64,000 bases of DNA from Marinobacter mangrovi (GCF_016798325.1 NZ_JAERVO010000003.1:455608-519607), one strand, 5' to 3'; counted from the first letter of the stretch, positions 7,512 through 45,542 are shown. The notes: generated by a model from the letters alone, not told the origin. Translations and numbers: made by a program.

Positions 7512-8435
7512 ATGCCCACCCCGCTGTACCAGCGCTGGCTGCCAATTCTGTTTGGCCTCGCCCTGCTATTCCCCGCTTCCGAACTCCACGCCGAAAAACC
7601 ACAACTCACCCTGGCCCAGGTCTACGAAAAGGGCGATGCCCTCAAAGGCTACTGGGTCAGCGAAAAACTCGACGGTGTGCGGGCCTACTGGGACGGTGAG
7701 CACCTGATTTCGCGTCAGGGCCATGCGTTTCATCCGCCGACCTGGTTTACCCGGGATTTTCCGGAGGTACCTCTGGATGGCGAGCTGTGGATGGGACGCG
7801 GGACCTTTTCCGAGCTGTCCGGGGTGGTGCGCAAGCTGGAGCCGGTGGACAGCGAGTGGCGGCAGGTGCATTACGAGATTTTTGATCTGCCCGGGAGTGA
7901 TCGCCCGTTTTCGGAGCGGGTGGCGCGCATGCGGTCGCTGCTCAAGCCTTCGCCATCACCCTACCTCGTTATGATCGAACAGACGCCGGCAACCACGCGG
8001 GCGGCGTTGATGGCGCGTCTGGACGAGGTGGTTGATGAGGGCGGTGAAGGGCTGATGCTACATCGTGGCGGTGCCCTGTATGAAGCCGGTCGCTCGGACG
8101 ATTTGCTGAAGGTGAAGCGGTATCAGGATGCCGAGGCCACGGTGGTGGGCTATTCGCCGGGGCAGGGGAAATACGAGGGCATGCTGGGCGCACTGGTGGT
8201 GGAGCGTTCCGATGGCCGCCGGTTCAAGCTGGGTAGCGGGTTCAGTGATGAGCAGCGTGCGGATCCTCCGGCGATCGGGGCGACGGTGACTTACAAATAT
8301 TATGGGCTGACGTCGACCGGATTACCGCGGTTCGCGAGTTTTATGCGGGTCCGGAATGAAGAGCCGGTCGGAAATGGGGGCAGACTCTGCGCGGCATTCT
8401 GTTCGACAAAGTCGCCACATGATGCTGCTCGATGA
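7512..8435 (+). CDS. Periplasmic ATP-dependent DNA ligase, LigE-like (copy 1, intact)
   Basis: N-terminal signal peptide 'LPILFGLALLFPASELHA'; motif I 'KLDGVRAYWDG' (KxDG adenylation lysine), 'EGLMLH', 'LLKVKR'; about 300 aa, typical of signal-peptide-bearing minimal ligases. Confidence 0.75.
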   Translation: MPTPLYQRWLPILFGLALLFPASELHAEKPQLTLAQVYEKGDALKGYWVSEKLDGVRAYWDGEHLISRQGHAFHPPTWFTRDFPEVPLDGELWMGRGTFSELSGVVRKLEPVDSEWRQVHYEIFDLPGSDRPFSERVARMRSLLKPSPSPYLVMIEQTPATTRAALMARLDEVVDEGGEGLMLHRGGALYEAGRSDDLLKVKRYQDAEATVVGYSPGQGKYEGMLGALVVERSDGRRFKLGSGFSDEQRADPPAIGATVTYKYYGLTSTGLPRFASFMRVRNEEPVGNGGRLCAAFCSTKSPHDAAR

Positions 8436-8486
8436 GAGCAATACATCGCAATTCATGTGTCTGGTCCTGAGTGGTAAAGGAGTTTT

Positions 8487-9485
8487 ATGATGGAGGCATA
8501 CCAGCCAACGGCTTATCGGTTCGATGATATTCCGATTTTACCCAGCGGCGGGCATCCAAAGTTGGATAAGGTATTTGAGCGGCTCTCTTGGGGGCATTAT
8601 CAAACGCCAGTCGTACCTAATGCGGTGGAAGTGCAACTTGCCTATGCAAGTCTTTTCAGTAACGAAAATGACGCTGAGGATGGATTTCCTTGGAATGAAG
8701 AAAGTTTTTCTATAGGTAAAGGGTTTTTAAATGGTTTTCAGTCTTTGTTGTATATGATTCATATATGCGCTGTTCTTTTGTTTTATCTCGCTTTATTTCC
8801 CCTTTTTTTTAGCATTATTTTTTATTTTGTTGATGAATTGAGGTTGTCCGCGCTGTATACTATTGCTCAAAGTTTCACTATTATGTAGGTGGTTATAGCG
8901 GCGCTATACGTCCTAGGGAAGTATGGAAGGCTATTGTTGGCTCAAGTTTCCGAAAAAGCGCAAAGAGCAAATCCAACAGGTCTCTATCGTCGCGAAGGGT
9001 TGGTCCGCATAAAAAACCGGAAAGAGGTTTTTACCGCACCCTTTATCGAGTTCGATGCCTATTGTGTCCATTCCCCTTCCGGCCGTGGTAGTCGCTATTA
9101 CAATCTTGTCCTCCAGCATCGCTACAGCGAGGAACAGCTTTGGATGAAAGGACTGCTAACCAATGCGATGAATCCGCAAGATGTCTACGCCTACTGGGAC
9201 ATGGTCCAGCAGTTCATGGACGTGAGTCACCCTCTGCCGGACGTGCCGGTTTTTGAGCCCTTCCGTCATCGCGATCCAGTAACCGCCGAAGAGGACGCCC
9301 GTACCGGGCGTGATCCATTCCATTGGCGCAAAATCACGCCGGAATCCTGGCGGGAGCATTACGAATCAAAATATCGAGCGCGACTACTCAACGCAAATTG
9401 GAATCGCCCCTGCATTATGGATGCTCGTATTGAAGGCAGGGGGATACCCGCCAATGAACCGCCCCGCGGTAGTATCCTGGCCTGA
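8487..9485 (+). pseudogene. A2-type immunity paralog interrupted by an in-frame TAG (8886-8888)
   Basis: ORFs 8487..8888 and 8889..9485 are in the same frame, split by a single amber codon; together colinear with the intact paralog 42284..43309 ('DIPILPSGGHPKLDKVFERL', 'YAYWDMVQQFMDVSHPLPDVPVFEPFRHRDPVTAEEDARTGRDPFHWRKITPESWREHYESKYRAR'). Confidence 0.55.
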
Positions 9486-9588
9486 TCAATGATGGACGAT
9501 CTGGATGTTGAACAGCGGCAGTTGCGGCCTGTTTCTCTACGACTTTGGGGGGAGCATTCAATTTCAAAGATGATGGAGGATCAGGGGG

Positions 9589-10608
9589 TTGACTGATCCT
9601 GAGAAGAGTGAACATAGCGGGGCTTCATACTCGGAAACGGCCTATCGCTCCGATGCCTTGCCGCGCCAGGCCCCGCTGAGTGATCCGGGTGGTTTTGCTC
9701 GCACCCTGGAAGGGCTGAATTTTGTCGAGCGGCTGCCTACTGGCAGTTACGCTGGTTTAGACGGGGACGTTAGCCCAGACGTTGTGAAGCATTTTCAGGA
9801 TCGGGCACAAGGTGAAATGAACTTGGCTGGCCCTCCCTGGGATCATAAAGGGAAGCCGGCCAATCTCATTAAGACGCGCTGGGAAATTATACTAATGTTT
9901 GCCGGTACTCTTGGAGATAGGTTCGTTTTCGGTTTTTTTTCGTTCGCTTGTTTAGGCAGTTTTCTTATAGGCATATGCGTTGCTGATTTTTTTATTACAT
10001 TGAAACTTATTTCAATATTGTTTTTTGGTTTGGTAATTCTTCATATTACTTTTCGTTATCCCTTCATGTGGCTCTTGGAGCGCTATCCAGAGATCATGGT
10101 TCGCGATCTCGGTTGCGGTTTTTTCCGTACGACGGGAAAAATCAAATTCCGCACCTACTGGGGTAAGGAAACCTTCGAGGCCCCCTTCATCGAGTTCGAT
10201 CCTTATATCGCCTATCACGTCCAACCGAATGGCCCGGTGAGCTATAAGCTGGTTCTTCGACACCGTTATCGGGGGCGTCAGACGGAGGTGGCTACCGTTC
10301 CGCAGGGACGAAAGACCGAGCTCTATGCCGTCTGGGACCAGTTGCAGCGCTACATGGACGTGAGCCAGCCCCTGCCGGATATCCCGGCCCTGGAAGCCTA
10401 CCGGTCCCTCGACCCCACAACCGCGGCCTATGATGCCGCCGGTAAGCGGGGTCGACCTGCGGATTATTGGGTCACACTGGACCTGGACTGGTGGAAACGG
10501 GAAGGGTATCCCGAGCACATGACAAAGATCGCTGAATTCCCGTGGGACAGTCTCGAAGACAAGATGGAACAGAGTGTGCCAAACCTGCGCGAAGCGGCCA
10601 TGGTTTAA
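9589..10608 (+). CDS. Immunity-family paralog A3 (divergent member; TTG start likely)
   Basis: 'YSETAYRSDALP' N-motif, TM segment, 'FIEFDPYIAYH', 'YAVWDQLQRYMDVSQPLPDIPALEAYRSLDPTT'; preceded by the about 170-nt junction also found at 42170-42340. Confidence 0.5.
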   Translation: MTDPEKSEHSGASYSETAYRSDALPRQAPLSDPGGFARTLEGLNFVERLPTGSYAGLDGDVSPDVVKHFQDRAQGEMNLAGPPWDHKGKPANLIKTRWEIILMFAGTLGDRFVFGFFSFACLGSFLIGICVADFFITLKLISILFFGLVILHITFRYPFMWLLERYPEIMVRDLGCGFFRTTGKIKFRTYWGKETFEAPFIEFDPYIAYHVQPNGPVSYKLVLRHRYRGRQTEVATVPQGRKTELYAVWDQLQRYMDVSQPLPDIPALEAYRSLDPTTAAYDAAGKRGRPADYWVTLDLDWWKREGYPEHMTKIAEFPWDSLEDKMEQSVPNLREAAMV

Positions 10609-10678
10609 ACACTGACATCACCGCAAATAGCGTTACTCAATGACGTCCCATGGACGGGACGCTAAGTCGCAAGCAAAC

Positions 10679-10704
10679 CCTTAATTCACCACAAGGACCG
10701 TGAA
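10679..10704 (+). repeat. Ligase leader repeat (copy 2)
   Basis: 'gcaagcaaacccttaattcaccacaaggaccgtgaaatgcc' core. Confidence 0.75.
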
Positions 10705-10953
10705 ATGCCAACCCCGCTGTACCAGCGCTGGCTGCCAATTCTGTTTGGCCTCGCCCTGCTGTTCCCCGCGTCTGAACTCCACGCCGAAAAAACGCAACTC
10801 ACCCTGGCCCAGGTCTACGAAAAGGGCGATGCCCTCAAAGGCTACTGGGTTAGCGAAAAGCTGGACGGTGTGCGGGCCTATTGGGACGGCGAACACCTGA
10901 TTTCCCGCCAGGGCCATGCGTTTCATCCGCCGACCTGGTTTACCCGGGATTTT
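10705..10953 (+). pseudogene. LigE-like ligase copy 2, truncated after codon 83 by the IS21-family remnant
   Basis: Identical N-terminus through 'PPTWFTRDF'; nucleotide identity to copy 1 ends at 10953, where the track ORF (to 11067) runs on into unrelated IS-derived sequence. Confidence 0.7.
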
Positions 10954-11067
10954 GGCGGTGTTCCGGCCAGCGTCCTGGTCGATAACCAGAATGCCGCGGT
11001 GGTTCGACACGACCGGGATGGCAAGATCGTCTTCAACGCCGGCTTCCTGGAACTGGCCAACCATTAA

Positions 11068-11604
11068 GGCTTCGCCGCCCGGGCCTGCCGGCCCAGGACC
11101 AAGGGCAAGACCGAGCGCATGGTGAGCTACGTGAAGCACCACTTCTTCCAGCGCTATCGCAGCTTCGACAGCTACGCGCACCTGAACCAGTTACTGGAAC
11201 AGTGGTTGAGCAGCTATGCCCGTCAGCGGAGATTACGCCAGTTCCAGCAATCTGCGGCTCAGCGCTTCGAGGAAGAGCTCCACCAACTCAGCCCTCGTCC
11301 GGCAACGGACGTCGATACCCGCTATTACGACATCCGCCATGTGGGCTGGGATGCCTACATCGATGTGCGGGGCAAACGTTACAGCGTACCGGCCGAGTGT
11401 TGTGGTCAACGGGTCAACATCCTCATGAGCCTGGACGGTGAACTCACCGTCTACGACCTCCGGGGCCAGGAAGTCGCCCGTCACCGGATGACCGATCGCA
11501 GGCAAGGCTGGCAAACCGTCGCTGAACACCACGAGCCGCTGTGGCAAGAGGTGATGCCCGTGCAGCGCCGAAGCCTGGCGGTGTATGAGGAGGTGCTGCA
11601 ATGA
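11068..11604 (+). pseudogene. istA: IS21 transposase IstA, C-terminal fragment only
   Basis: In-frame region begins right after a stop at 11065-11067 with 'ASPPGPAGPGPRTKGKTERMVSY'; catalytic N-terminal region missing. Confidence 0.65.
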
Positions 11605-12402
11605 ACCTGGACCAACTCCTAGGCCGGCTCAAAATGGACCATCCGCAAGCCTCCCTGGATACCCTGTGCGAACACGCCAGCAAGAAGGACCTGAACTACC
11701 GGGAGTTCCTGGAACAGGCCCTGGCCCAGGAATGGGGTGGCCGCCACCAGAAAGGCCTGGACACGCGCCTCAAGCAGGCCCGGCTGCCCTGGATCAAAAC
11801 CCTGGAGCAGTTTGACTTCAGCTTCCAGCCGAGCATTGACCGCAAGCTGGTGCGGGAACTCTCCGGCCTGGGGTTCGTGGAGCGCAACGAGAGTGTGATC
11901 CTGCTGGGGCCACCGGGTGTGGGCAAAACCCACCTGGCCGTCGCCCTAGGCGTAAAGGCTGCTGAAGCGGGCCATCGCGTCCTGTTCATGACCCTGGATC
12001 GCCTGGTGAGCACACTGGTCAAAGCCCGGCAGGAAAACCGGCTGGACCGACAGCTTCAACAACTGATCTACCCAAAGGTGCTGGTGCTTGACGAGATCGG
12101 TTACCTGCCCATGACCCGGGAGGAGGTCAGCCTGTTCTTCCGTCTGATCAACCGGCGCTATGAGCGAGCCAGCACCATCCTGACCTCGAACAAGAGCTTT
12201 ATGGACTGGGGTGAGGTGTTGGGACCAGGTCATTGCCACCGCCATTCTGGATCGGCTGTTGCACCACTCAACGACTCTGAACATCAAGGGCGAGAGCTAC
12301 CGGCTAAAGGACAAACGGAAGGCCGGCCTTGTTCCCGGTACGAGCCAACAACAGGAGGTCTCTGACGACGCTGAGCCTCAAAAACCGGACACTGAAAACT
12401 GA
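11601..12402 (+). pseudogene. istB: IS21 helper ATPase IstB with a frameshift near codon 205
   Basis: ATG overlaps the istA stop (ATGA). The conserved C-terminus 'VIATAILDRLLHHSTTLNIKGESYRLK' continues in a different frame (ORF 12211..12402) after about nt 12215-12235. Confidence 0.65.
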
Positions 12403-12456: not shown

Positions 12457-13011
12457 CACTACTGGGATGAACAGTCCAGGCCATCGAACACGGAGCTGCT
12501 GGAGGACAGCAGAACCATCGCATCCCCGGACGATGGCGGGAAAGTTCGTAAATATTTTGAAGCGGAGCTGGATGCATTCTATTACATGCTGTTTTCGCCC
12601 ATAGTGCGAATAACCGAACACATGCCCAGGTATTGGGATACGACCCGGCAGGGGGAGCTTAAGGTCCTGTCGGAGTTCACGAGCTTTGCAGTGTACTTTC
12701 CGGGATACAGTGAAGGGACATGTGTCGTTTCTATAAAACTGTTCGAGGCGAATACCCACTGGTTCTCAGATGACGATTCAAATGAAATTAGCCACTTGTT
12801 CGATGACCGAAAGAGACAAGAGTCCGCTTCCCATGGTCTGCTTTACCGGTTTACTCACTACAATCACAACAAGTGGGAACAACTGGAAATGCTGATTGAA
12901 TACGAGAAGGATGGCCGGAAGGTTACCGGTGAAAACGGGCTCAGAATTATTCTGGACGGTAACGACGTGGAGGAACTGGGTGTCGATGAAAGACTCGCCT
13001 TTGAGGTGTGA
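12457..13011 (+). pseudogene. 3' fragment of a second (family-B-associated) effector-like gene, 5' part removed by the IS21 remnant
   Basis: Frame open without a start from 12457 (just after the IS end); first ATG 12586; its last about 35 codons ('...IEYEKDGRKVTGENGLRIILDGNDVEELGVDERLAFEV') recur upstream of each downstream tandem paralog. Confidence 0.4.
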
Positions 13012-13861
13012 TTTTCCGGAAACGGACCTGGAGCAACAGCTGGAAAAGAAGCGGTACCGTACTCATGGTGCACGGCTCGCCAGCCCCCCAGCCAGAAAGG
13101 TGGCGGGAGTGTCCGATTCTTCGGAAGATATGGACCAAGGCGTTGCTTTCATTAGTGAAGGGTTCATGGACATTAGGACTGCCTTCTTGTCTCTTCGAAG
13201 GGCCATACCAGCCATCATAAATCTGTTCATGATCATTGTCCTGCTGTTGGGCTGGGTCGTTAGCTTGTTCTTTTCAAAGGCTTTACTCGGAGTATTGATT
13301 GCTTTTGGTCCTGTCTGGGTGGCCGTCTACCTGTTCGAGATCTTCTTTCCGTACACGCTGCCGGTCCGGATCGACCTTAAGGAGGGGGTCGTCTACATAG
13401 GGCACCGCGGCACCTTCTACAGGATTCCCTGGGACGAGCTGGAAGTGACCTTTTCCTACAACTGGCAGTATCTGGGCTCTGGCGTAGTGTGGGAGCGGCA
13501 GTACTACGCCCACATATTCATGCGGGAAAAGCATTACTTTTGTGGGAAGCGCCCTAAGATGCCTCTGCAGCGCAAGAAGGTTTTTTCCGGGTTTAAGGAG
13601 GAGGATATGTATCGGAAATGGAACTTTATTGTCAGGTATTACAACGACGGGGTTGTTGAAAAAGACATCGATCATCTCGCCGGGATGAATTTTGACTCGC
13701 TTCGTAAGGATCTAGCTTCCAGTTCAATAGGAAAACGCATAGTCGAGTATTCTCTTCTCATTCTGCTTATTCCGACCATAATATGGTCGAAGTATACACC
13801 CTTAAAATACAAGTGGCCGAAAGAGATTGAAGAGATTTTTGGGAAGATTAACTATTACTGA
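12986..13861 (+). CDS. Family-B candidate immunity membrane protein (tandem copy 1 of 4)
   Basis: ATG 12986 overlaps the 3' end of 12457..13011; 'MKDSPLRCDFPETDLEQQLEKK', two TM helices, 'GHRGTFYRIPWDELEVTFSYNWQYLGSGVVWERQYY'. Confidence 0.5.
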   Translation: MKDSPLRCDFPETDLEQQLEKKRYRTHGARLASPPARKVAGVSDSSEDMDQGVAFISEGFMDIRTAFLSLRRAIPAIINLFMIIVLLLGWVVSLFFSKALLGVLIAFGPVWVAVYLFEIFFPYTLPVRIDLKEGVVYIGHRGTFYRIPWDELEVTFSYNWQYLGSGVVWERQYYAHIFMREKHYFCGKRPKMPLQRKKVFSGFKEEDMYRKWNFIVRYYNDGVVEKDIDHLAGMNFDSLRKDLASSSIGKRIVEYSLLILLIPTIIWSKYTPLKYKWPKEIEEIFGKINYY

Positions 13862-14001
13862 TCCAGTAATCGAGGTTTTCCTGACACTGCGTTCTGCCCT
13901 ATTGAACTGACGACTGAGTTAGAAGGATGGCCGGAAAGTCACGGGTGAAGACGGGCTCCGTATCATCCTGGTCGGTAACGATGTGGAGGAACTGGGTGTC
14001 G

Positions 14002-14877
14002 ATGAAAGACTCGCCTTTGAAGTGTGATTTTCCGGAAACAGATCTGGAACAACAGTTGGAAAAGAAGCTGTACCGCACTCATGATGCGCGACTCGCCAGC
14101 CCGCCAGCCAGGAAAGTGGCAGGGGTGTCGGCTTCCTCGGAAGGAATGGAGTATGGTGTCGCCTACATCAACCAACGGTTCATGGACATCCGCACGGCTT
14201 TCTTGATCTTTAGGCGATTCCAATTGGCTATTGTAAATCTGTTCATGATGATTGTCTTGACATTGGGCGGGGGGCTTAGCCTGTTTTTTTCAAAGGCACC
14301 GTTGGCAGTCTTGGTTACTTTTGGGCCTGTCTGGGCGGCCATCTACCTGTTCGAAATTTTCTTCCCGCTCACGCTGCCCGTGCGGATCGACCGCCAGGAA
14401 GGGGTTGTGTACGTAGGGCACCGGGGGACTTTTTACCGGATTCCCTGGGACGAACTGGAAGTGACCTTTTCCTACAACTGGCAGTATCTCGGCTCCGGGG
14501 TTGTATGGGAGCGGCAGTACTATGCCCATCTGTTTATGCGGGAGAAGCATTACTTTTGCGGGAAGTCCCCCAAGATGCCCTTGCAGCGTAAAAAAATCTC
14601 TTCCGGGTTTAAGGAAAAGGATATGTATCGGAAATGGAATTTTATTGTCAGGTATTATAACGAAGGAATGGTTGAGGAGGACGCTGACAATCTTGTTATG
14701 GCTAATTACGATACATACCGTAAATACATAACCCAAAAATCATTGGGGAGGCGTATTTTTAGTTACTTGTTGTTTCTTGTATTTATGCCAACCATGATTT
14801 GGTGGAAATTTACCCCTTTCAAGTACAAGTGGCCGAAAGAGGTTGAGGAGGTTTTTGGGAAGGCTAACAATTACTGA
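14002..14877 (+). CDS. Family-B candidate immunity membrane protein (tandem copy 2)
   Basis: Paralog of copy 1; preceded by the remnant 'KDGRKVTGEDGLRIILVGNDVEELGVDERLAFEV*' (13925-14029). Confidence 0.5.
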   Translation: MKDSPLKCDFPETDLEQQLEKKLYRTHDARLASPPARKVAGVSASSEGMEYGVAYINQRFMDIRTAFLIFRRFQLAIVNLFMMIVLTLGGGLSLFFSKAPLAVLVTFGPVWAAIYLFEIFFPLTLPVRIDRQEGVVYVGHRGTFYRIPWDELEVTFSYNWQYLGSGVVWERQYYAHLFMREKHYFCGKSPKMPLQRKKISSGFKEKDMYRKWNFIVRYYNEGMVEEDADNLVMANYDTYRKYITQKSLGRRIFSYLLFLVFMPTMIWWKFTPFKYKWPKEVEEVFGKANNY

Positions 14878-15018
14878 TTCCGGGTTGAAAATTTCCTGTC
14901 ACCGCGCTCTACCCCATTGGACTGCGGATCGAGTATGAGAAGCATGGCCGGAAAGTCACGGGTGAAGACAGGCTCCGAATTATTCTGGACGGCAACGATG
15001 TGGAGGAACTGGGTGTCG

Positions 15019-15891: not shown

Positions 15892-16031
15892 TTTAGTAAT
15901 CGAAGTTTTCTTAACATTGCGCTCTGCCCTAGTGAACTGACGGCCGAGTGAGAAGGATAACCGGAAAGTCACGTTTGAAAACGGGCTCCGAATTATTCTG
16001 GATTGAAACGATGTAGAGGAACCGAGTGTCG

Positions 16032-16907: not shown

Positions 16908-17037
16908 GTTTGTTAGCAACAGAATGAGAAATATTTTGCGCGATAGACCGGCTATCTGCTCCTGATTTCGGTGCTTGAGTATCTAACCGTTGTAATCAAA
17001 TCTTCCGACATCCTCCCAAGGACGGGAATCCGACACA

Positions 17038-17072
17038 CAAGCAAACCCTTAATTCACCACAAGGACCGTGAA
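17038..17072 (+). repeat. Ligase leader repeat (copy 3)
   Basis: Same core sequence ending at ATG 17073. Confidence 0.75.
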
Positions 17073-17511: not shown

Positions 17512-17568
17512 AAACACTGACATCACCGCAGAAAGGTAGACCCCTTAGGTCTCAGGCAGACCCAGAGC

Positions 17569-18848: not shown

Positions 18849-18940
18849 CTGGGGAGTCGTCGTTGTATAGTCGGAACGTTCATCAAGGAAATGGAACAAA
18901 CAACCACAGGGATTGAGAGGTGGTTTCCCCATTGCGTAGT

Positions 18941-19747: not shown

Positions 19748-19890
19748 TCCTTACCTTCGCTGGCAAGCTTGTATACACGAGCTATGAGGCTGTTTTAACT
19801 GAAAATTGAAGCGATTTCCTGATTTGAAAACCAGAGTGCGAAACGTTATAGCCACTGCAAAGGTCTTTCTTGCACCCAGGTTCGAGACGG

Positions 19891-32968: not shown

Positions 32969-32986
32969 TCCACGCCTCGGACCCGT

Positions 32987-38292: not shown

Positions 38293-38331
38293 ATTCGTCC
38301 CTCAGAGATCAGGGGCGACAATTAACAAGGA

Positions 38332-38535
38332 GTGTTTGTGAGCACATTGGAAGTGTTTCTCGAGAGCCGGGAGAAAGATGGCGTTTGGCTATTCAATCGC
38401 CGCTGGCGGGATTGCCCGTTCTACGGGATCTATGATGACGAACGCGGCGACGACGTATGGCAGTCGTCTTCGGATTTTTATCTGCAAAATGCCAGTTCTT
38501 GGGTGACTCTCAGCCGTTGCGATGCTGACGACTGA
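38332..38535 (+). CDS. Small hypothetical ORF
   Basis: 67-aa ORF right after the giant gene; weak support. Confidence 0.2.
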   Translation: MFVSTLEVFLESREKDGVWLFNRRWRDCPFYGIYDDERGDDVWQSSSDFYLQNASSWVTLSRCDADD

Positions 38536-38640
38536 AGGGTTGCTGCGTAGCATCCGGATATAGCGGAAGTGTTTTGATGAGCAGGCCCGTGCCTTTTGAA
38601 CACCATGGAATGGAAAAATAACCCAAAGGAGTGTGGCTGA

Positions 38641-39354
38641 ATGTACTTGGAGTACGTGCCGGCTGAGCAACAGTATGATTATTATGCGAAAGAGTGTTAT
38701 GCAAACTCAATGTCTGGGTCGAGTTTTCATGTTTTCCAGAAAAGCGTGCGGCTGGTTGATGATAAAGTCATTGCGGCCTCTTTCATTAAAGGCATAACGG
38801 TACTTCGACTTAAAGATATAAAATTCATCGAGTTGAGAGTCGACCATTCTGACGCTTCGGTCTGCTGTAATATATGGGGGCATTCCGGAACAGGTTATAT
38901 CACGCTTTGTGATTACAGCCTCGTTAATGGGTTAAATGCCGTCGCGGAGGTCAAAAGAAAGGAGTTCGTATCGTTCATCGAGACTTTGCTTGGACGTTTG
39001 AAGGAATTGGATCTGGCACAGCAAGTGGAATGCAAATATGTTGGACCAGAAACGATAAAAATTGAACTGATCGAGATGTTTTGGTCTTTTCTCTTTGCGC
39101 CAATCGTTATGACTATTCTTATGACGCTCATGATAGTGGTAGGCGTTCCAAGTTCTTCGACCGTAATGACGACAATATGCGTTGTACTCGTTTTCCCGCT
39201 CATGTTTTTGGGATGGTATATCAGCCCCCGCGTTGTGGATTCTCTGTGTGAAACGTGTGTGATTACTTATCCGGTGCTTCCGGAACGGCTATTCGAACTG
39301 GCCGACGGCGTCATCACCAGAGATTTATCGAAAGAAGACGAGGATAAAAAGTGA
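38641..39354 (+). CDS. Hypothetical membrane protein (low-GC gene)
   Basis: 237 aa, two C-terminal TM helices, AT-rich codon usage unlike neighbours. Confidence 0.4.
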   Translation: MYLEYVPAEQQYDYYAKECYANSMSGSSFHVFQKSVRLVDDKVIAASFIKGITVLRLKDIKFIELRVDHSDASVCCNIWGHSGTGYITLCDYSLVNGLNAVAEVKRKEFVSFIETLLGRLKELDLAQQVECKYVGPETIKIELIEMFWSFLFAPIVMTILMTLMIVVGVPSSSTVMTTICVVLVFPLMFLGWYISPRVVDSLCETCVITYPVLPERLFELADGVITRDLSKEDEDKK

Positions 39355-40586
39355 GGGGTTGCGCCTAGTCGGCGAGTCGATACGGCGCTGGCCCCTGTCG
39401 TTCGGTGGATGATGTGCGGCTTTTGGGCTGATTTTCGAAGTTTCATATTTAGCGAGAGATTATATCTCAAACTATTCATGAGAGTTCATCGGGTGGCGTG
39501 CTCACCCTGTTGTTATCGCTGCTCATAGGCATTTCTTTGTTTCCGTTGTGCGCGATGGACAAGGATTAACGGTAGGCTCTGCGTCTGACCCGAACCTTGC
39601 CATTCCGTTCTGTTCGTCACCAAGCTGGCTCTTCGTAGAATGAAGGTTCGAATCAAAGCGCGGTATTAAAGTTCAGCTTGATCTCCAGAGAATGCAAGCA
39701 TGACACCCATGCTGGGAAAAGCGTCGTCGTCCGACTCATCGAAAGAGGTGTTTGGGGCGTCGGCCTTGCAGCTGGAAACCGCCAAGCGACGGGATAACCG
39801 TTGGTACTTGGTGGGGCTCAGAGCCGCCAGCGAAGATCGTCTTGGGTCGGATAACGAGAATCCGGGACGACTCGTTAAGAGGCCTTTTGCCCCGAGCTAG
39901 ACCCAATTTGGAGCCGATGCGAGGTGATGTCTCTGTTGTAGGCGAGCCAGTGACTGACTTGCCAGCTGCGCCCACTGTGATTTCACGGTTCCATTCCGTA
40001 TAGTCACGGCTGTCTGAAAGCCCGTGTGGTATTATGGCAAGCGCGTAAGCATACAGCGCCTGGCGGAATTCTGCGTTCTTGGTCTCTTCGTCGGCATGCG
40101 AGATCCGCGACTGGTCCAGCGACACCGTCCTGCGGACCGAAACGTCTTCGTCCGCCTCCAATGTCTGTTCTTCAATCTGTTCGTACCCTTAGGCGGAGAT
40201 CACTCTTCTGCGAGTCGATATTTGCGGACGCTAACGAGTCGGCCATCGGGAAAAATGGGCGCTACGATGGCGCCAGTCAGGGATTCCAACTGATCAAACG
40301 TGATGGCCTCTATATCCCGGTACAGATGTCCGTCAACGAAACCGGAGAGACCTACGCGGCAATCAGGTGTCCAAGCGGGCGTTTTTCAGTCGCTGGGTGA
40401 GTAAGAGTAAAAGAGTTCCCACAATCGTGGTCGGGCACCGATGCCGTATCGGTTGGCCGAGCGATCGCTACATCGTTTAGGCAGCGAAATCGGAAAAAGC
40501 TGCAAAACGCGTACTTGATGCGGGAGCCAGTTGGCGTAAGGGCGGCCTGAGCTTTTGCCACTTGCAGACGATTTCAGTTTTGTAAT

Positions 40587-41291
40587 GTGTGTTGTATCAT
40601 TTGTCCCGCAGTCATCCTGCAGGAGGCAGGGTGTGGAAACCATGGAAAGGATTCGATGTTATTACCCCCCGAAATTTGCTTCGCGGCTATGTCCCTCGAA
40701 GTGCTCGAAGACCTGTCTTACGATGTAGTGCGTAAAAATCCAACGGCAACGGTGACGCCGATAAACGCTCGAGGGCGTCCAGCCGACTGGTCGTCTGGAA
40801 AGGTTTTTGCGTTTAAGGTCCAGGAGGATGGCCAGAACAAACCCTTCATGATCGTTACGACCAAGTCCGCGATGCTCATGCCGGAAAGAGCCTCTCCCGA
40901 CGTGTTTGACGTATCGGTCCGTATAGTGCGTGCCCGTGTCAACTACACGGAGCCTCAGCCCGAAATCGCCGTGGGCTTGTTGGCGACGGCCGGTTTTGCA
41001 GCTTTGTTTTACTACACGCTAATTCATCAAATCGTCCCACGTGGGCCTTTGATTACCTGCATCGTGCTGGTGGCGGTGTGCTTGCTCTTGGCTGGGCTGA
41101 TTCTGCTTGTGATGCGGTTGTATAAGGCTCCAGAGCGCGGCCGCAGTAAGTTGGGTGTAGTCTTGCTGCTCCCGGGCCTGTTTGCGGTTATGCCAATAGG
41201 CCTCCTTAACCTCCCGTTGCTCCATTACATCCGTCGCAAGCACGGTGAGCAATTGTTGCCCACTCGGGTTGTTTCGACGGAGATCAACTGA
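40587..41291 (+). CDS. Hypothetical membrane protein
   Basis: 234 aa, TM helices in C-terminal half; start uncertain. Confidence 0.35.
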   Translation: MCCIICPAVILQEAGCGNHGKDSMLLPPEICFAAMSLEVLEDLSYDVVRKNPTATVTPINARGRPADWSSGKVFAFKVQEDGQNKPFMIVTTKSAMLMPERASPDVFDVSVRIVRARVNYTEPQPEIAVGLLATAGFAALFYYTLIHQIVPRGPLITCIVLVAVCLLLAGLILLVMRLYKAPERGRSKLGVVLLLPGLFAVMPIGLLNLPLLHYIRRKHGEQLLPTRVVSTEIN

Positions 41292-41529
41292 GAGCGATCC
41301 TAAACCAGACCTGGCAGTCGCGCTGTGACTCGGTGTGATGAATCCGGCCGAGCACGGCAGCGCACTCCGGAATAGTCTGCAATGTGTAGACAGGGCGCAT
41401 CAAAAGGATCAGCTGTCCCGTGTGCCCGAGACATTAAATGTGATTGATTCCAGAAATCATAACCGGGAATTTGCTGCCCCAACTCTGATGAGGCTTGGGT
41501 TCAAGAGATAAGCCATCAAGGATGAAATA

Positions 41530-41868
41530 GTGAGTGACGAAACTAAAGCCATGTGTATGTCGTGCCAAGGTCCTAATCAGCTTTCCCAGGAAGATCTGGC
41601 GCAACTCGGTAAGTCCGAACCGATCGCCTGCGGTGAATGCGGCGCAATGGTAAAAATCAAGCCTGACCCGGATGGAGAGCGGAAGGCGATGTTGTCGGTT
41701 TTGACCTTGACCGCCGGAGCTTTGATCGTTTGCGTCGTGGCCTTGATCAATCTATTTGGTGATGCCGGTTTCCCGACTTACTTTGTGGCCATTCCATTCA
41801 TTTTGATTTCAACGCTTTTGGTGTCGATCCAGAGCGCTAATGTGATCAAACTGCAGCCCGTCGACTGA
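41530..41868 (+). CDS. Zinc-ribbon (CxxC...CxxC) membrane protein
   Basis: 'CMSCQG' and 'CGECG' pairs followed by two TM helices. Confidence 0.4.
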   Translation: MSDETKAMCMSCQGPNQLSQEDLAQLGKSEPIACGECGAMVKIKPDPDGERKAMLSVLTLTAGALIVCVVALINLFGDAGFPTYFVAIPFILISTLLVSIQSANVIKLQPVD

Positions 41869-42034
41869 GGTCACCGGCCTAAGAGGAGGGTGGCCCGCAT
41901 GTTTGGGACCTCAAGGAGAAACCATCAGTCTTTCAAACCTGCACCTTAATTCCCTTGATATCCGCTCAATTCTGGCCCTTTAAAACTTAACTTGACCTAG
42001 GATTTTTCATGTTCAAGTTTTTGCTTCTTTCAAG

Positions 42035-42217
42035 TTGTACTCGAAGGTTTATAAAGGCTGGCTTCTCCAAGGTGACAATAATACTGACTATGCTGTTTCC
42101 GCGGATGGCCAGTGGCTGGCAGGTCATAACGTAAAGGCTTGGGACCGTTCCCGCGAAGCGTATGTGGATCAAAAGGTTTCACACACGATGGACGATCTGG
42201 ATGTTGAGCAGCGGTAG
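42035..42217 (+). pseudogene. Remnant of the 3' end of an A2-cognate effector gene (tail '...SHTMDDLDVEQR*')
   Basis: The same tail 'MMDDLDVEQRQ' and the following about 170 nt recur at 9486-9660 upstream of the other A2/A3 paralogs. Confidence 0.45.
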
Positions 42218-42283: not shown

Positions 42284-43309
42284 TTGACTGATCTTGAGAA
42301 GAGTGAACATAGCGGGGCTCCATACTCGGAAACGGCCTATCGCTCCGATGATATTCCCGTTCTGCCCACCGGTGGGCACCCCAAGTTGGATAAGGTATTT
42401 GAACGGCTCCCTTGGGGGAATTATCAAACACCGGTCGTTCCCAATACAGTAGAGACTCAACTTGCCTATGCCAGTCTTTTCAAAGATGAAAAGGACACTG
42501 AAGATGGGTTTCCGTGGGGTGAAGAAAAGATAGCCATTGGGAAAGGTTTTCTGAACGGGTTTCAGGCATTTTTGTACATTACGTATATGTGTGCTTGGTT
42601 GGCTTCGTTAGTTGCTTTGATACCGCTAACAATTAGCTTTTTCTCACTATTTTTACATGGATTCAGCGTCGCCAGCCTTTATAATATTCTATCCGCTTAT
42701 GGGGTTATGTATGCAATCATAGGGGGGCTTTTTTTCGGAGGAAAATACGGTCGCTTGATGTTGGCTTATCTTACCGAAAAACGCCAAAGAGCAAACCCAA
42801 CCGGCCTCTATCGCCGCGAAGGGTTGGTCCGCATAAAAACCCGAAAAGAGGTTTTTTCCGCACCCTTTATTGAGTTCGATGCGTATTGTGTCCATTCCCC
42901 TTCCGGTCGTGGTGGCCGTTATTACAACCTTGTCCTCCAGCATCGCTACAGCGACGAACAGCTCTGGATGAAGGGGATGGTGGCCGATGTGATGAATCGG
43001 CAAGACGTCTACGCGTACTGGGACATGGTCCAGCAGTTCATGGACGTGAGTCACCCTCTGCCGGACGTACCGGTCTTTGAGCCCTTCCGTCATCGCGATC
43101 CAGTGACCGCCGAAGAGGACGCCCGTACCGGGCGTGATCCATTCCATTGGCGCAAAATCACGCCGGAATCTTGGCGGGAGCATTACGAATCAAAATATCG
43201 AGCGCGGCTACACAATGCGAACTGGAATCGCCCCTGCATTATGGACGCTCGTATTGAAGGGCGCGGGATACCGATCAAGGATGAACCTCAGGGCCGCATG
43301 TTGGCTTAG
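42284..43309 (+). CDS. A2-type candidate immunity protein (intact copy)
   Basis: 341 aa; colinear with the pseudogene 8487..9485; 'FIEFDAYCVHSPSGRGGRYYNLVLQHRYS', 'YAYWDMVQQFMDVSHPLPDVPVFEPFRHRDPVT'. Confidence 0.55.
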   Translation: MTDLEKSEHSGAPYSETAYRSDDIPVLPTGGHPKLDKVFERLPWGNYQTPVVPNTVETQLAYASLFKDEKDTEDGFPWGEEKIAIGKGFLNGFQAFLYITYMCAWLASLVALIPLTISFFSLFLHGFSVASLYNILSAYGVMYAIIGGLFFGGKYGRLMLAYLTEKRQRANPTGLYRREGLVRIKTRKEVFSAPFIEFDAYCVHSPSGRGGRYYNLVLQHRYSDEQLWMKGMVADVMNRQDVYAYWDMVQQFMDVSHPLPDVPVFEPFRHRDPVTAEEDARTGRDPFHWRKITPESWREHYESKYRARLHNANWNRPCIMDARIEGRGIPIKDEPQGRMLA

Positions 43310-43333
43310 GAGCAAAAGGGCCTGTTCGGAAAC

Positions 43334-43540
43334 GTGGTCAGTCGGGAGATCGTGAAGTACTCGTGGAGCGCCCGTGTCCAGATCCGCATTGGCAAGAAGG
43401 ACGACCTGATGGTTTTCCCTGCGCCCTTGCCGGACTCTTCATTAACGTACGATAAAAACAATGAAGAACACACCAAGCCGGATTTCTCCGAAACGGACAG
43501 GGTTTTCTGGTTCGATGAAAAGGTGGTTCAACGTGGATAG
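43334..43540 (+). pseudogene. Remnant of the last about 68 codons of an effector gene (divergent homolog of the 1998..6062 tail)
   Basis: 'VKYSWSARVQIRIGKKDDLMVFPAPLPDSSLTYDKNNEEHTKPDFSETDRVFWFDEKVVQRG*'. Confidence 0.6.
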
Positions 43541-44588
43541 TGTTGTAGAAATGCCGAGGCAGACAACTGGTTATTATGCCGATACCGCCTATCGACCGGA
43601 TCGCATACCGGAGCAACCTCCCCAGCATGAGGACCACAACCAATCCGCGCTGGGGCGTTTTGGCACCGCGCGCTTGCCGTGGGGGCATACGGAACCGGTT
43701 GTACCGATTATTGTTTTCGCGAAGGCCCCCCCAAAACTACTGCGTTGGCATGAAGAGCAGGGGGATCCCCTCGAGGGCACTGGCTATCAGGGGCGGATGG
43801 ATCATGAGTGCTTTCGGTATGCACCGCTGGCTAGGCGTTTTCAGGTTTTAAATTTGTCCGAGATTTTTTCCAGATTAACGGTCCTTATTTTTGGCCCTTT
43901 GATGATATTGACGCTGATTATTGGATCGTTTATTTCGTCAGACAAGAATTACTGGCATAGCTTAATTGACGAGTGGCAATCCTTTGCCATGATGTTTGGA
44001 ATTCCAATCGGAATCTGGGTTGTTTCCCGGGTTTTGGGGAAGTTATTTTTAGGTTGGTTCTTGAAAGCAGGAAAAGGCCCTCTATGGGAGCTGAACCGCC
44101 GCACCGGCATGGTCACCGTATGGACCTACCCTCCAAAATTCCCCTTCATTCCGCGCGGCAAGCCAGAGGTCTTCAAGGTGCCATTTGTGGAGTTTGACGC
44201 CTGGGTCAGTACCCGTGGTGACCGGGCCGGGATCCTGAACCGTCTCCATCTGTTCCATCGTTACAGCAAGTGCGATGCGGGCGTTGGTGCCATCGGTGGT
44301 AACACCAGCATGCCCGAACCCTGCTATGCCCTTTGGGACTTCGTACAAAACTACATGGACGTGACCCAGCCCTTGCCCGATATCCCGATCTGGGAAGCCC
44401 ACCGCCACCTGGACCCGGTCACGGCCGAGCACGACCGGCAAACCAACCGCCCGGAACGCTACTGGCGCGATATGGACGACGACACCTTCAAGGCCTGTGA
44501 GCGCGAGATGCACTATCGAGTCCACGCACTGCGCATCCTGAGCCGGCCGAACATTATGGCCGAGAAGACGGTTTACGCGAGCTACTAG
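43515..44588 (+). CDS. A1-type candidate immunity protein (orphan copy)
   Basis: Overlaps the remnant as in the other A1 cassettes; the 3' half is nearly identical in nucleotide sequence to 18330-18848 and 7146-7424. Confidence 0.55.
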   Translation: MKRWFNVDSVVEMPRQTTGYYADTAYRPDRIPEQPPQHEDHNQSALGRFGTARLPWGHTEPVVPIIVFAKAPPKLLRWHEEQGDPLEGTGYQGRMDHECFRYAPLARRFQVLNLSEIFSRLTVLIFGPLMILTLIIGSFISSDKNYWHSLIDEWQSFAMMFGIPIGIWVVSRVLGKLFLGWFLKAGKGPLWELNRRTGMVTVWTYPPKFPFIPRGKPEVFKVPFVEFDAWVSTRGDRAGILNRLHLFHRYSKCDAGVGAIGGNTSMPEPCYALWDFVQNYMDVTQPLPDIPIWEAHRHLDPVTAEHDRQTNRPERYWRDMDDDTFKACEREMHYRVHALRILSRPNIMAEKTVYASY

Positions 44589-44639
44589 CCGGTACACGGT
44601 TCATCGTTGAGTGGTTTCCCAGGGAAGGGAAGCTGAAAT

Positions 44640-44675
44640 GCAAGCAAACCCTTAATTCACCACAAGGACTGTGAA
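44640..44675 (+). repeat. Ligase leader repeat (copy 4)
   Basis: Same core; the wider match 44585-44675 equals 7425-7511. Confidence 0.75.
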
Positions 44676-45542
44676 ATGCCCACCCCGCTGTACCAGCGCT
44701 GGCTGCCATTCCTGTGCAGCCTCGCCCTGCTATTCCCCGCGTCTGAACTCCACGCCGAAAAACCACAACTCACCCTGGCCCAGGTCTACGAAAAGGGCGA
44801 TGCCCTCAAAGGCTACTGGGTCAGCGAAAAACTCGACGGTGTGCGGGCCTATTGGGACGGTGAGCACCTGATTTCGCGTCAGGGCCATGCGTTTCATCCG
44901 CCGACCTGGTTTACCCGGGATTTTCCGGAGGTACCTCTGGATGGCGAATTGTGGATGGGACGCGGGACGTTTTCCGAGCTGTCCGGGGTGGTGCGCAAGC
45001 TCGAGCCGGTGGACAGCGAGTGGCGGCAGGTGCATTACGAGATTTTTGATCTGCCCGGGCGTGATCGCCCGTTTTCGGAGCGGGTGGCTCGCATGCGGTC
45101 GATGCTCAAGCCTTCGCCGTCACCCTACCTCGTTATGATCGAACAGACGCCGGCAACCACGCGGGAGGCGTTGATGGCGCGTCTGGACGAGGTGGTTGAT
45201 GAGGGCGGTGAAGGGCTGATGCTACATCGGGGCGGCGCCCTGTATGAAGCCGGTCGCTCGGACGATTTGCTGAAGGTGAAGCGGTATCAGGATGCCGAGG
45301 CCACGGTGGTGGGCTATTCGCCGGGGCAGGGGAAATACGAGGGCATGCTGGGGGCGCTGGTGGTGGAGCGTTCCGATGGCCGCCGGTTCAAGCTGGGTAG
45401 CGGGTTCAGTGATGAGCAGCGTGCGGATCCTCCGGCGATCGGGGCGACGGTGACCTACAAATATTATGGGCTGACGTCGACCGGGTTGCCTCGGTTCGCG
45501 AGTTTTATGCGGGTTCGGGATGAGGAGCCGGTGGCGGAATAG
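44676..45542 (+). CDS. Periplasmic ATP-dependent DNA ligase, LigE-like (copy 4, intact, 288 aa)
   Basis: Near-identical to copy 1 up to 'MRVRDEEPVAE*'; signal peptide, KxDG motif. Confidence 0.75.
   Translation: MPTPLYQRWLPFLCSLALLFPASELHAEKPQLTLAQVYEKGDALKGYWVSEKLDGVRAYWDGEHLISRQGHAFHPPTWFTRDFPEVPLDGELWMGRGTFSELSGVVRKLEPVDSEWRQVHYEIFDLPGRDRPFSERVARMRSMLKPSPSPYLVMIEQTPATTREALMARLDEVVDEGGEGLMLHRGGALYEAGRSDDLLKVKRYQDAEATVVGYSPGQGKYEGMLGALVVERSDGRRFKLGSGFSDEQRADPPAIGATVTYKYYGLTSTGLPRFASFMRVRDEEPVAE

What the first reader, a model, noticed from the sequence alone, without database searches (positions are those of the whole stretch)
7512..45542. Four copies or fragments of a periplasmic LigE-like ATP-dependent DNA ligase interleaved with the immunity cassettes
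Intact copies are at 7512..8435 and 44676..45542, and truncated copies at 10705..10953 and 17073..17415. All start with the same signal peptide and KxDG motif and sit behind the same leader. Signal-peptide-bearing minimal ligases are normally single-copy accessory genes. Multiple copies embedded in a T6SS effector/immunity orphan array are unusual. Either the ligase is part of the ancestral cassette (effector-immunity-ligase), possibly a second line of defence or repair function linked to intoxication, or it is simply the conserved 3' homology arm of the cassette.
Basis: partly seen in the sequence, partly recalled or inferred. Interest (0 to 1): 0.75.

Follow-up and report, generated by a model that had tools for sequence, protein, structure and literature searches.

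The report
Ligase gene scars in toxin-immunity array
Each time this marine bacterium took in a new toxin/antidote gene set for its type VI secretion weapon, it also took in a piece of the periplasmic DNA ligase gene that lies next to that weapon cluster in its relatives, so the four ligase copies are mostly recombination scars, not a ligase expansion.

Summary
The window, which is from Marinobacter mangrovi, holds one native LigE ligase (44676-45542) and one almost complete second copy (7512-8435). It also holds two 5' stumps (10705-10953, 17073-17415). All four sit behind the same leader.

Comparative loci explain the pattern. In at least seven other Marinobacter lineages the order is vgrG, DUF4123 adaptor, effector, immunity gene(s), then LigE on the same strand. 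LigE is therefore the conserved right-hand border of the variable effector/immunity region. It is not linked to T6SS genes in about 45 LigE loci of other genera.

The copies differ mostly at synonymous sites (dS 0.10-0.33, dN/dS 0.02-0.14). This is as much as alleles of different strains differ. Each copy follows a different immunity gene and ends at a different point.

The best explanation is serial effector displacement. Incoming DNA was anchored by homology at vgrG and joined illegitimately at its far end, which sometimes lay inside the donor's ligase gene. The stumps are pseudogenes. The second copy is probably functional, and the native copy is clearly so.

This is a new variant of the known orphan-immunity array. 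The genus-wide T6SS-LigE linkage is a side lead and I found no report of it.

The parts
9..1409 (+). vgrG (5'-truncated by the window edge). It is the left, homologous anchor of the variable region.
   Evidence: Pfam Phage_GPD, Phage_base_V and Gp5_trimer_C. It is 77-89% identical to the vgrG of L063, L026 and L057.
1422..1985 (+). DUF4123 adaptor/chaperone
   Evidence: Pfam PF13503
1998..6062 (+). The active effector (1354 aa), with a weak VasX_N / BTH_I2691-family match
   Evidence: It is 87.5% aa identical to the M. bohaiensis effector in L026.
5971..7110 (+). imm-b0, the cognate immunity gene of the active effector. It belongs to the newest cassette.
   Evidence: The M. mangrovi protein P0005 is an exact substring. 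It has 2 predicted TM segments. It is orthologous to L026 5716-6771.
7152..7425 (+). 3' fragment (274 nt) of a displaced imm-b gene
   Evidence: 94-96% identical to 44316-44590 and 18576-18849. The junction with the newer cassette lies at about 7125-7151.
7446..8435 (+). Leader hairpin plus lig1. This is a LigE copy complete through about codon 286, followed by a 21-residue foreign tail.
   Evidence: All motifs I-VI are present. dN/dS against lig4 is 0.10.
8487..9485 (+). imm-a', an orphan immunity pseudogene with an in-frame stop at 8886-8888
   Evidence: 81% nt identity to 42331-43272. It is listed as two ORFs in one frame.
9491..10608 (+). Short effector-end remnant plus the orphan immunity gene imm-c
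   Evidence: 9491-9655 = 42187-42350 at 94%. 56% aa identity to an orphan in L027. One predicted TM segment.
10646..10953 (+). Leader plus ligase stump frag2 (codons 1-83, motif I only)
   Evidence: It is fused at 10953/10954 to the middle of an IS21 istA.
10954..12365 (+). 5'-truncated IS21-family element (istA C-terminal part plus istB). It erased the original right junction of frag2.
   Evidence: Pfam Mu-transpos_C_2 and IstB_IS21
12896..16907 (+). Four tandem, diverged DUF6708-like membrane-protein genes. They are probably immunity genes of a displaced VasX_N-type effector.
   Evidence: Units of about 1016 bp at 72-74% identity. Weak DUF6708 matches. A VasX_N effector is followed by a DUF6708 gene in L027.
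17014..17415 (+). Leader plus ligase stump frag3 (codons 1-114, motifs I and III only)
   Evidence: It has private changes E51K, L92P and E110D.
17416..17530 (+). 3' end of a second, displaced imm-c gene, fused in frame to frag3
   Evidence: 98% identical to 10511-10625. The junction has 0-1 nt of microhomology.
17564..17719 (+). Remnant (52 codons) of a displaced effector's 3' end
   Evidence: blastx gives 94% identity to residues 1278-1329 of the window effector.
17706..18848 (+). imm-b'', an orphan immunity gene and the last gene of the left part of the array
   Evidence: 81% nt identity to 43465-44592. Homology stops 2 nt after its stop codon.
18849..42039 (.). A 23-kb block of ordinary-looking genes that splits the array. 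It includes DUF1190, GspS, LprI, a 1280-aa ankyrin protein, PspA, DUF2170 and a 1745-aa DUF3686 ATPase.
   Evidence: The block is absent between effector and ligase in NFXS9 and L055. Parts are syntenic with L001, L028 and L057. GC is 51-62% against 59-69% in the core flank.
42040..42216 (+). Remnant (58 codons) of the 3' end of an unidentified effector
   Evidence: Read directly from the sequence. Its last 30 nt recur upstream of imm-c. It has no match to the sampled effectors.
42284..43309 (+). imm-a, an orphan immunity gene
   Evidence: Two predicted TM segments.
43310..43537 (+). Remnant (76 codons) of the 3' end of the clade's resident effector
   Evidence: 98.7% aa identity to the effector C-termini of L055 and L025.
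43461..44588 (+). imm-b, an orphan of the clade's resident effector/immunity pair. The true start is probably 43515.
   Evidence: P0001 is an exact substring. It is syntenic with L055 and L063.
44610..45542 (+). Leader hairpin plus lig4, the native, intact LigE gene (288 aa)
   Evidence: It is syntenic with lig-nfi in M. halodurans, NFXS9 and L055.
45595..46302 (-). nfi (endonuclease V), the first conserved core gene to the right of the array
   Evidence: Pfam Endonuclease_5. 89-91% aa identity in L001 and L002.

Best explanation
The ligase copies are hitch-hiked flank DNA. In Marinobacter the LigE gene lies directly downstream of the last immunity gene of the T6SS vgrG module. It therefore marks the right border of the region where effector/immunity (E-I) modules are exchanged.

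In this M. mangrovi genome new E-I modules were added repeatedly, about six times by position. The proposed route is one-sided recombination, also called homology-facilitated illegitimate recombination. The incoming DNA paired with the resident vgrG, adaptor or effector 5' region. Its other end was joined without homology inside the resident effector or immunity gene.

Each event displaced the old effector. It left the old immunity gene, often with a stub of the old effector, further downstream. When the incoming fragment ran past the donor's immunity gene into its ligase, that ligase piece was trapped. The trapped pieces are codons 1-83, 1-114 and 1 to about 286.

Only lig4, next to nfi, is the resident gene. 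lig1 is a near-complete second allele and is probably still a working periplasmic ligase. frag2 and frag3 are dead stumps.

What is shown: the copies, their borders, the effector stubs, the allelic level of divergence and the genus-wide immunity-ligase adjacency. What is inferred: the order of events, the recombination route and the mode of DNA entry.
For: 1. LigE directly follows vgrG-DUF4123-effector-immunity on the same strand in several loci.
- L026 and L027, the M. bohaiensis clade.
- L055 and L056, 97% nt identical to the window over 11 kb.
- L063, sp. NFXS9, with tssM-PAAR-vgrG-A-E-I-lig-nfi.
- L057, L058, L060 and L061, whose ligases are only 60-64% identical.

2. Between the same anchor points NFXS9 has 1.9 kb and the window has 39.3 kb, at 3992-43307.

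3. The copies differ at dS 0.10-0.33 with dN/dS 0.02-0.14. Alleles of different strains and species differ by the same amount. The copies therefore diverged as working genes in separate lineages.

4. Each copy follows a different upstream gene: imm-b, imm-c or DUF6708. Shared sequence begins only at the leader hairpin.

5. The copies end at different points. The one clean junction (17415/17416) joins ligase codon 114 to the last 115 nt of imm-c with 0-1 nt of microhomology.

6. Effector 3' stubs lie upstream of orphan immunity genes at 17564-17719, 42040-42216 and 43310-43537. The V. cholerae displacement model predicts this (PMC5361080).

7. Frag3 alone carries replacements next to the catalytic lysine and in motif III. 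This fits decay after truncation.

8. The array has lower GC than the core flank.
Against: - Donor genomes with imm-c-ligase or DUF6708-ligase adjacency were not found. Only imm-b-ligase is documented, so two of the three donors are inferred.
- The right junction of frag2 was destroyed by the IS21 remnant.
- Natural transformation, or any other entry route, has not been shown for this organism.
- lig1 with its upstream imm-b stub is as close to lig4 (96.2%) as to the NFXS9 allele (96.1%). An old duplication within the genome cannot be excluded for that copy.
- The sample of Marinobacter loci is partly biased. Several loci were reached through immunity-gene homologues or through matching contig lengths.
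Confidence: 0.72

Rival explanations
1. Functional module. LigE is a working part of the T6SS accessory operon in Marinobacter. For example, it could repair DNA released from T6SS-killed neighbours so that the DNA can be taken up. Extra copies would then be kept because they are useful.
For: - Immunity-ligase adjacency is kept across Marinobacter lineages whose ligases are only 60-97% identical, while the genes downstream of the ligase differ at least four ways: nfi, nasS/nasT, TPM-LemA-GDPD and GDPD-PGAP1.
- The genes are on the same strand with gaps of 50-90 nt, or overlap as in L060, and no terminator was found in the gap scanned here (imm-b to lig4).
- In V. cholerae the LigE gene ligA2 is in the QstR regulon together with competence and T6SS genes (PMC6237807).
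- LigE raises transformation with nicked DNA in N. gonorrhoeae (bioRxiv 10.64898/2026.03.22.713542).
- lig1 keeps all motifs.
Against: - Two of the four copies are stumps without a complete catalytic core or an OB domain. Usefulness therefore cannot explain the copy number.
- No other Marinobacter locus examined has more than one copy.
- M. halodurans has LigE without an adjacent module.
- M. hydrocarbonoclasticus and M. apostichopi have the module without LigE next to it.
- About 45 LigE loci of other taxa have no vgrG, adaptor, effector or immunity homologue within reach.
- Deleting ligA2 in V. cholerae changed neither killing nor transformation.
Confidence: 0.12
2. Duplication in place. The pieces were copied from the resident lig4 region by ectopic recombination, unequal crossing-over or gene conversion between the two parts of the array. 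They then diverged within this genome.
For: - The two parts lie about 25 kb apart in direct orientation and share imm-a, imm-b and ligase sequence.
- 7152-8373 matches 44316-45539 over both the imm-b end and the ligase.
Against: - Divergence is almost all synonymous (dN/dS 0.02-0.14) and is as large as between species. Copies decaying in one genome, two of them truncated, should not show such constraint.
- frag2 and frag3 follow immunity genes that are absent from the lig4 region.
- lig1 is no closer to lig4 than to the NFXS9 allele.
Confidence: 0.1
3. Site-specific cassette insertion. The conserved hairpin at the start of the leader acts like an integron attC or another recombination site, so immunity-plus-leader units are inserted by a recombinase.
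For: - The shared sequence of all four copies starts exactly at the hairpin CCCANGGANGGG.
- The stems covary between copies.
Against: - No integrase or other recombinase was found among the ORFs scanned in the array. The only mobile-element genes are a truncated IS21 next to frag2.
- The right ends fall at unrelated points inside the ligase ORF.
- The hairpin also precedes single-copy ligases, including that of M. bohaiensis, which has a different stem. A transcript-level role fits this better.
Confidence: 0.03

Closest known systems
Orphan immunity gene arrays of Vibrio cholerae T6SS clusters (Kirchberger et al. 2017, PMC5361080)
   Same: Both arrays lie 3' of vgrG-adaptor-effector. In both, the orphan immunity genes resemble those of bona fide pairs in other strains. 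Stubs of displaced effectors remain. The proposed route is the same: homology at the upstream end and an illegitimate join downstream.
   Different: Here the incoming DNA also carried pieces of the gene beyond the cassette, the LigE ligase. These pieces serve as dated markers of separate events. One event appears to have brought in about 23 kb of ordinary genes. The organism, the effector families and the immunity families also differ.
Lig E, the periplasmic minimal ATP-dependent DNA ligase (Psychromonas 4D05, Alteromonas 6GDR, N. gonorrhoeae 8U6X)
   Same: lig4 and lig1 have the two-domain core with motifs I-VI and no extra DNA-binding domain. They have an N-terminal signal peptide. They score well above the NCBIfam equivalog cut-off.
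   Different: Lig E is described as lacking informative synteny. In Marinobacter it is fixed next to the T6SS immunity genes. This genome has a second near-complete copy and two stumps.
Rhs / CDI orphan toxin-immunity strings formed by C-terminal displacement
   Same: Both show serial displacement that leaves strings of orphaned 3' modules downstream of an active gene.
   Different: There the homology anchor lies inside the toxin gene's conserved core, and the orphans keep toxin tips. Here the effectors are separate VgrG-loaded proteins, and the trapped extra DNA is a housekeeping-type neighbour gene.

Membership tests
Lig E (NCBIfam NF006592 / PRK09125) | Nucleotidyltransferase domain with motifs I (KxDG), III, IIIa, IV and V | tested here: met
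   Met for lig1 and lig4: PF01068 and residue-by-residue alignment to 4D05, including SEKLDGVRAYW, LDGELW, IFDLP, GEGLMLH and LLKVK. frag2 has motif I only. frag3 has motif I and a mutated motif III, DGEPW.
Lig E (NCBIfam NF006592 / PRK09125) | OB-fold domain with motif VI, and no further DNA-binding domain | tested here: met
   PF14743 at residues 216-281 with E about 6e-32 in lig1 and lig4. Their lengths are 288 and 307 aa. The OB domain is absent from frag2 and frag3, so those two are not members in any functional sense.
Lig E (NCBIfam NF006592 / PRK09125) | Score above the curated equivalog cut-off | tested here: met
   381.4 bits against a cut-off of 200 for lig4.
Lig E (NCBIfam NF006592 / PRK09125) | N-terminal periplasmic signal peptide | tested here: met
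   Hydrophobic segment at residues 10-22 after the positively charged MPTPLYQRW, with LHA-EK as a likely cleavage site. Alignments to the crystallised ligase chains start at residues 29-31. No dedicated signal-peptide predictor was available.
Lig E (NCBIfam NF006592 / PRK09125) | ATP-dependent nick-sealing activity and periplasmic location | not testable with these tools
   This needs enzyme assays and fractionation.
T6SS orphan immunity array formed by serial effector displacement | Array lies directly 3' of vgrG-adaptor-effector | tested here: met
   The left end is orthologous to tssM-PAAR-vgrG modules in L063 and L029.
T6SS orphan immunity array formed by serial effector displacement | Orphans are homologues of immunity genes that sit in complete effector-immunity pairs elsewhere | tested here: met
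   imm-b matches the immunity genes of L055, L063 and L025. imm-b0 matches L026. imm-c matches an orphan in L027.
T6SS orphan immunity array formed by serial effector displacement | Stubs of displaced effector 3' ends upstream of orphans | tested here: met
   52-codon and 76-codon stubs were found by blastx. A 58-codon stub was read directly from the sequence.
T6SS orphan immunity array formed by serial effector displacement | Downstream junctions without homology (illegitimate joins) | tested here: inconclusive
   One junction (17415/17416) is clean with 0-1 nt of microhomology. For the others one parent sequence is missing or was erased by IS21.
T6SS orphan immunity array formed by serial effector displacement | Proteins actually confer immunity | not testable with these tools
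   Only position, array structure and 1-3 predicted TM segments support this.
Integron-like site-specific cassette system | A tyrosine recombinase and a common recombination site at cassette borders | tested here: not met
   No recombinase domain in the array ORFs scanned. The right borders of the ligase pieces share no motif.
Csr/Rsm-controlled leader (noticed, not claimed) | GGA in a hairpin loop (CANGGANG) plus a second GGA at the ribosome-binding site | tested here: met
   The sequence features are present at -56 and -10 in all four window copies, L055, L063, L026 and L027. Protein binding is not testable here. The consensus is recalled from my own knowledge.

The most novel reading that the evidence does not exclude
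LigE is a conserved terminal gene of the Marinobacter T6SS vgrG operon and works with it. The weapon kills neighbours and their DNA is released. The periplasmic ligase mends nicked or fragmented DNA so that longer pieces can be taken up. This in turn feeds the acquisition of new effector/immunity cassettes at the very locus the ligase borders. The shared Csr/Rsm-type leader hairpin would place the ligase under the same post-transcriptional control as T6SS genes in related bacteria.
Probability: 0.13. Interest if true: 0.8.

Novelty: new variant of a known kind. Interest (0 to 1): 0.5.

Why it matters
Orphan immunity arrays are thought to grow by one-sided recombination, but the far end of the incoming DNA is usually invisible. 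Here that end is preserved three times as ligase pieces of different length and different allelic origin. The array can therefore be read like a layered record of about six acquisitions.

The analysis also shows that LigE, an enzyme whose role is still debated, has a fixed neighbour in one genus, namely the T6SS immunity genes. The literature describes it as having no informative synteny. LigE has recently been tied to transformation with damaged DNA, and T6SS killing is known to supply such DNA in Vibrio. The linkage therefore gives a concrete organism and locus in which to test that connection.

Tried and rejected
- **Exact-sequence look-ups.** Look-ups of lig4 and of P0001 found nothing on record.
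- **T6SS genes near LigE in other genera.** I searched the ligase-selected genome loci (L001-L024) and the 24 metagenome loci (L031-L054), about 45 of them outside Marinobacter, by tblastn with vgrG, adaptor, effector and all immunity proteins. There were no hits beyond nfi and one fragment in M. halodurans. A general LigE-T6SS link was rejected.
- **The 19-42 kb interval as a mobile island.** It holds no integrase, no tRNA and no Rfam hit. PADLOC matched only the ankyrin protein. An insertion-element origin for the block was not supported. Its origin remains open.
- **IS21 as the vehicle for the ligase pieces.** This was rejected. There is a single truncated copy, and it touches frag2 only.
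- **Homology beyond the lig1 stop.** I looked in the downstream regions of lig4, L063, L001, L055, L026 and L057 and found none.
- **Effector stubs next to frag2, frag3 and after istB.** None were found.
- **Promoter and terminator scan around lig4.** Nothing was found in the immunity-ligase gap.
- **Published reports of LigE next to T6SS.** The library holds none.

Full report

Yes. Self-BLASTN gives three matches.
- 7152-8373 = 44316-45539 at 96.2%.
- 7453-7760 = 10646-10953 at 92.9%.
- 7453-7854 = 17014-17415 at 95.3%.

Both long copies carry the ATP-dependent ligase adenylation domain and the small OB domain. lig4 scores 381 bits on the NCBIfam LigE equivalog, whose cut-off is 200. The best solved relatives are the Lig E structures 4D05, 6GDR and 8U6X, and the alignment covers motifs I to VI.

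The signal-peptide region and the KLDG motif are present in all four copies. The shared leader begins at a small hairpin. Its core, CCCANGGANGGG, occurs four times in the window against 0.29 expected by chance. No further ligase pieces exist in the window.

- The copy at 7512-8435 loses homology at about 8373-8379. Its last two codons and stop are replaced by a 21-residue tail.
- The copies are 4-8% different from one another, not identical.

**2. What surrounds the copies?**

The window is from Marinobacter mangrovi. Two database proteins from a 715,535-bp contig, one of them named M. mangrovi, are exact substrings of two window ORFs.

From the left the order is as follows.
- A partial vgrG, a DUF4123 adaptor and a 1354-aa VasX-like effector.
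- The effector's immunity gene imm-b0.
- A 274-nt tail of another imm-b gene, then lig1.
- The imm-a' pseudogene, then imm-c, then frag2.
- A 5'-truncated IS21 element.
- Four tandem DUF6708-like genes, then frag3.
- The last 115 nt of a second imm-c, a 52-codon effector stub, and imm-b''.

Next comes a 23-kb block of ordinary-looking genes. It includes DUF1190, GspS, LprI, a 1280-aa ankyrin protein, PspA, DUF2170 and a 1745-aa DUF3686 ATPase.

After the block the order is a 58-codon effector stub, imm-a, a 76-codon effector stub, imm-b, lig4 and a convergent nfi. The immunity-like proteins have one to three predicted membrane segments.

**3. Comparative evidence**

A ligase-first scan of one genome per species returned 24 loci. 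M. halodurans (L001) is syntenic with the window on both sides of lig4. It lacks the immunity genes upstream.

None of the 24 loci contains a homologue of the window's vgrG, adaptor, effector or immunity proteins. The same is true of 24 metagenome loci. LigE is therefore not generally linked to T6SS.

Within Marinobacter the picture is different.
- M. bohaiensis has vgrG, DUF4123, a 1354-aa effector, an immunity gene, a 42-aa ORF, a 4HBT gene and then LigE. Window 358-7124 is 84% identical to that cluster.
- Marinobacter sp. JSM 1782161 has a different effector with a DUF6708 gene, two orphans, 4HBT and then LigE.
- Two contigs that are 97% identical to the window downstream of lig4 carry DUF4123, a 1372-aa effector, imm-b, LigE and nfi.
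- Marinobacter sp. NFXS9 carries tssM, PAAR, vgrG, DUF4123, effector, immunity gene, LigE and nfi without interruption.
- Three more distant lineages, with ligases 60-64% identical, also place LigE directly after the immunity genes. Their downstream neighbours are different.
- M. hydrocarbonoclasticus and M. apostichopi have the module without LigE next to it.
- No other locus has a second ligase piece.

Between the same two anchor points NFXS9 has 1.9 kb and the window has 39.3 kb.

**4. Are the copies duplicates or alleles?**

They behave as alleles. Differences between copies are mostly synonymous, with dS 0.10-0.33 and dN/dS 0.02-0.14. This is as large as between lig4 and the alleles of L055, NFXS9 and M. 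halodurans. lig1 is no closer to lig4 than to the NFXS9 allele.

The copies therefore diverged while each was a working gene in a separate lineage. frag3 alone carries E51K, next to the catalytic lysine, and L92P in motif III. This fits decay after truncation.

Each copy follows a different upstream gene, and the shared sequence starts only at the leader hairpin.

**5. Junctions**
- frag3 is joined at 17415/17416 to the last 115 nt of imm-c with 0-1 nt of microhomology, and the join is in frame.
- frag2 is joined to the middle of istA, so its original junction is lost.
- lig1 ends at its native stop region and is followed by about 130 nt of unknown origin before imm-a'.
- The newest cassette ends a few codons into the 42-aa ORF that follows the immunity gene in M. 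bohaiensis. It is joined inside an imm-b gene.
- The left part of the array ends 2 nt after the stop of imm-b''.

**6. Explanation**

These facts fit the displacement model proposed for V. cholerae arrays (PMC5361080). In that model homology at the upstream end anchors the incoming DNA and the downstream end is joined illegitimately. The old effector is lost and the old immunity gene is kept.

In Marinobacter the gene beyond the immunity gene is LigE. Fragments that ran past the immunity gene therefore brought ligase pieces of arbitrary length.

Reading the array from right to left gives the following layers.
- The clade's resident pair, seen as an effector stub, imm-b and lig4.
- An older imm-a layer.
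- An insertion that brought imm-b'' together with the 23-kb block. Donors of the M. hydrocarbonoclasticus type have the module followed by PspA, DUF2170 and DUF3686.
- Layers carrying imm-c, then DUF6708 x4 with ligase codons 1-114, then imm-c with at least ligase codons 1-83.
- Layers carrying imm-a', then imm-b with about ligase codons 1-286.
- Finally the active M. bohaiensis-like module.

The order, the route and the origin of the block are inferences. The lower GC of the array and block fits foreign origin.

A further inference explains why this genome alone collected ligase scars. Once the block separated vgrG from the resident ligase, a two-armed replacement would have deleted 23 kb of genes. 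Only one-sided additions would then have survived.

**7. Rivals**

A functional effector-immunity-ligase cassette cannot explain the truncated stumps or the single copy seen everywhere else. A looser functional tie is not excluded, for three reasons.
- The immunity-ligase adjacency is kept while the downstream genes change at least four times.
- The V. cholerae LigE gene is co-regulated with competence and T6SS genes.
- LigE aids transformation with nicked DNA in N. gonorrhoeae.

Duplication in place is disfavoured by the allelic pattern of divergence. Site-specific cassette insertion lacks a recombinase and a common right border.

**8. Novelty and score**

The array is a new variant of a known kind of structure. 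The trapped flank pieces are unusual and make the mechanism visible. The genus-wide LigE-T6SS adjacency does not appear in the searchable literature, and it stands beside a published statement that lig E lacks informative synteny.

The ligase copies themselves are mostly scars.

Noticed in passing
window 7446-7470, 10640-10662, 17008-17030, 44610-44634; L026 about 7505-7530: Every ligase leader has a small hairpin whose hexaloop and closing pair read CANGGANG exactly 56 nt before the ATG. A second GGA lies in the ribosome-binding site at -10. The stems differ between copies but stay complementary (GTTTCCC/GGGAAAC, CGTCCC/GGGACG, CGGCCTC/GGGGCCG in M. bohaiensis). This looks like a Csr/Rsm-type binding site, a consensus I recall from memory. 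It would put LigE under post-transcriptional control.
   Followed up: partly
window 18849-42039: A 23-kb block of ordinary-looking genes sits inside the immunity array, between imm-b'' and an effector stub. It is absent from the same interval in NFXS9 and in the same-species contig L055. In M. halodurans part of it lies directly upstream of LigE, at 92% identity against 88% for the flank. In more distant species its PspA-DUF2170 part lies downstream of LigE. How it got there is unresolved. Capture on one long incoming fragment is my guess.
   Followed up: partly
window 24573-28415 (-): A 1280-aa protein made largely of ankyrin repeats. It matches a PADLOC candidate defence model strongly (PDC-M72A, E 1.7e-67) and MzaA weakly. 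It lies inside the 23-kb block.
   Followed up: no
window 31028-38292 (+): A 646-aa protein with no family match, followed by a 1745-aa DUF3686 / DUF7902 / AAA ATPase. This gene pair, together with DUF2170 and PspA, is conserved near the T6SS end in several Marinobacter species (L028, L057, L061). PADLOC gave no hit.
   Followed up: partly
window 44676-45542 versus L001, L055: lig4 is a small-scale mosaic. Its leader is identical to L055. Its first 249 nt are closer to M. halodurans (9 differences against 14). Its 3' 519 nt are closer to L055 (17 against 30). The ligase gene itself seems to be a frequent crossover site.
   Followed up: partly
L025 (M. halodurans contig SJDL01000078, 5067 bp): The contig reads effector 3' part, imm-b, effector stub, second imm-b, and then breaks inside the second gene. 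M. halodurans therefore also has an orphan array, but on a contig that the assembly could not join to anything.
   Followed up: no
window 17073-17630: frag3 is fused in frame to the tail of imm-c. The imm-c stop codon is changed to a sense codon, which gives a 185-residue chimeric ORF that still starts with a signal peptide. It is probably a meaningless pseudogene product, but it could be exported if it is expressed.
   Followed up: no
window 12896-16907: Four tandem DUF6708-like genes with a unit length of about 1016 bp, only 72-74% identical to each other. GC falls from 0.52 to 0.40 along the run. No cognate effector remains.
   Followed up: no
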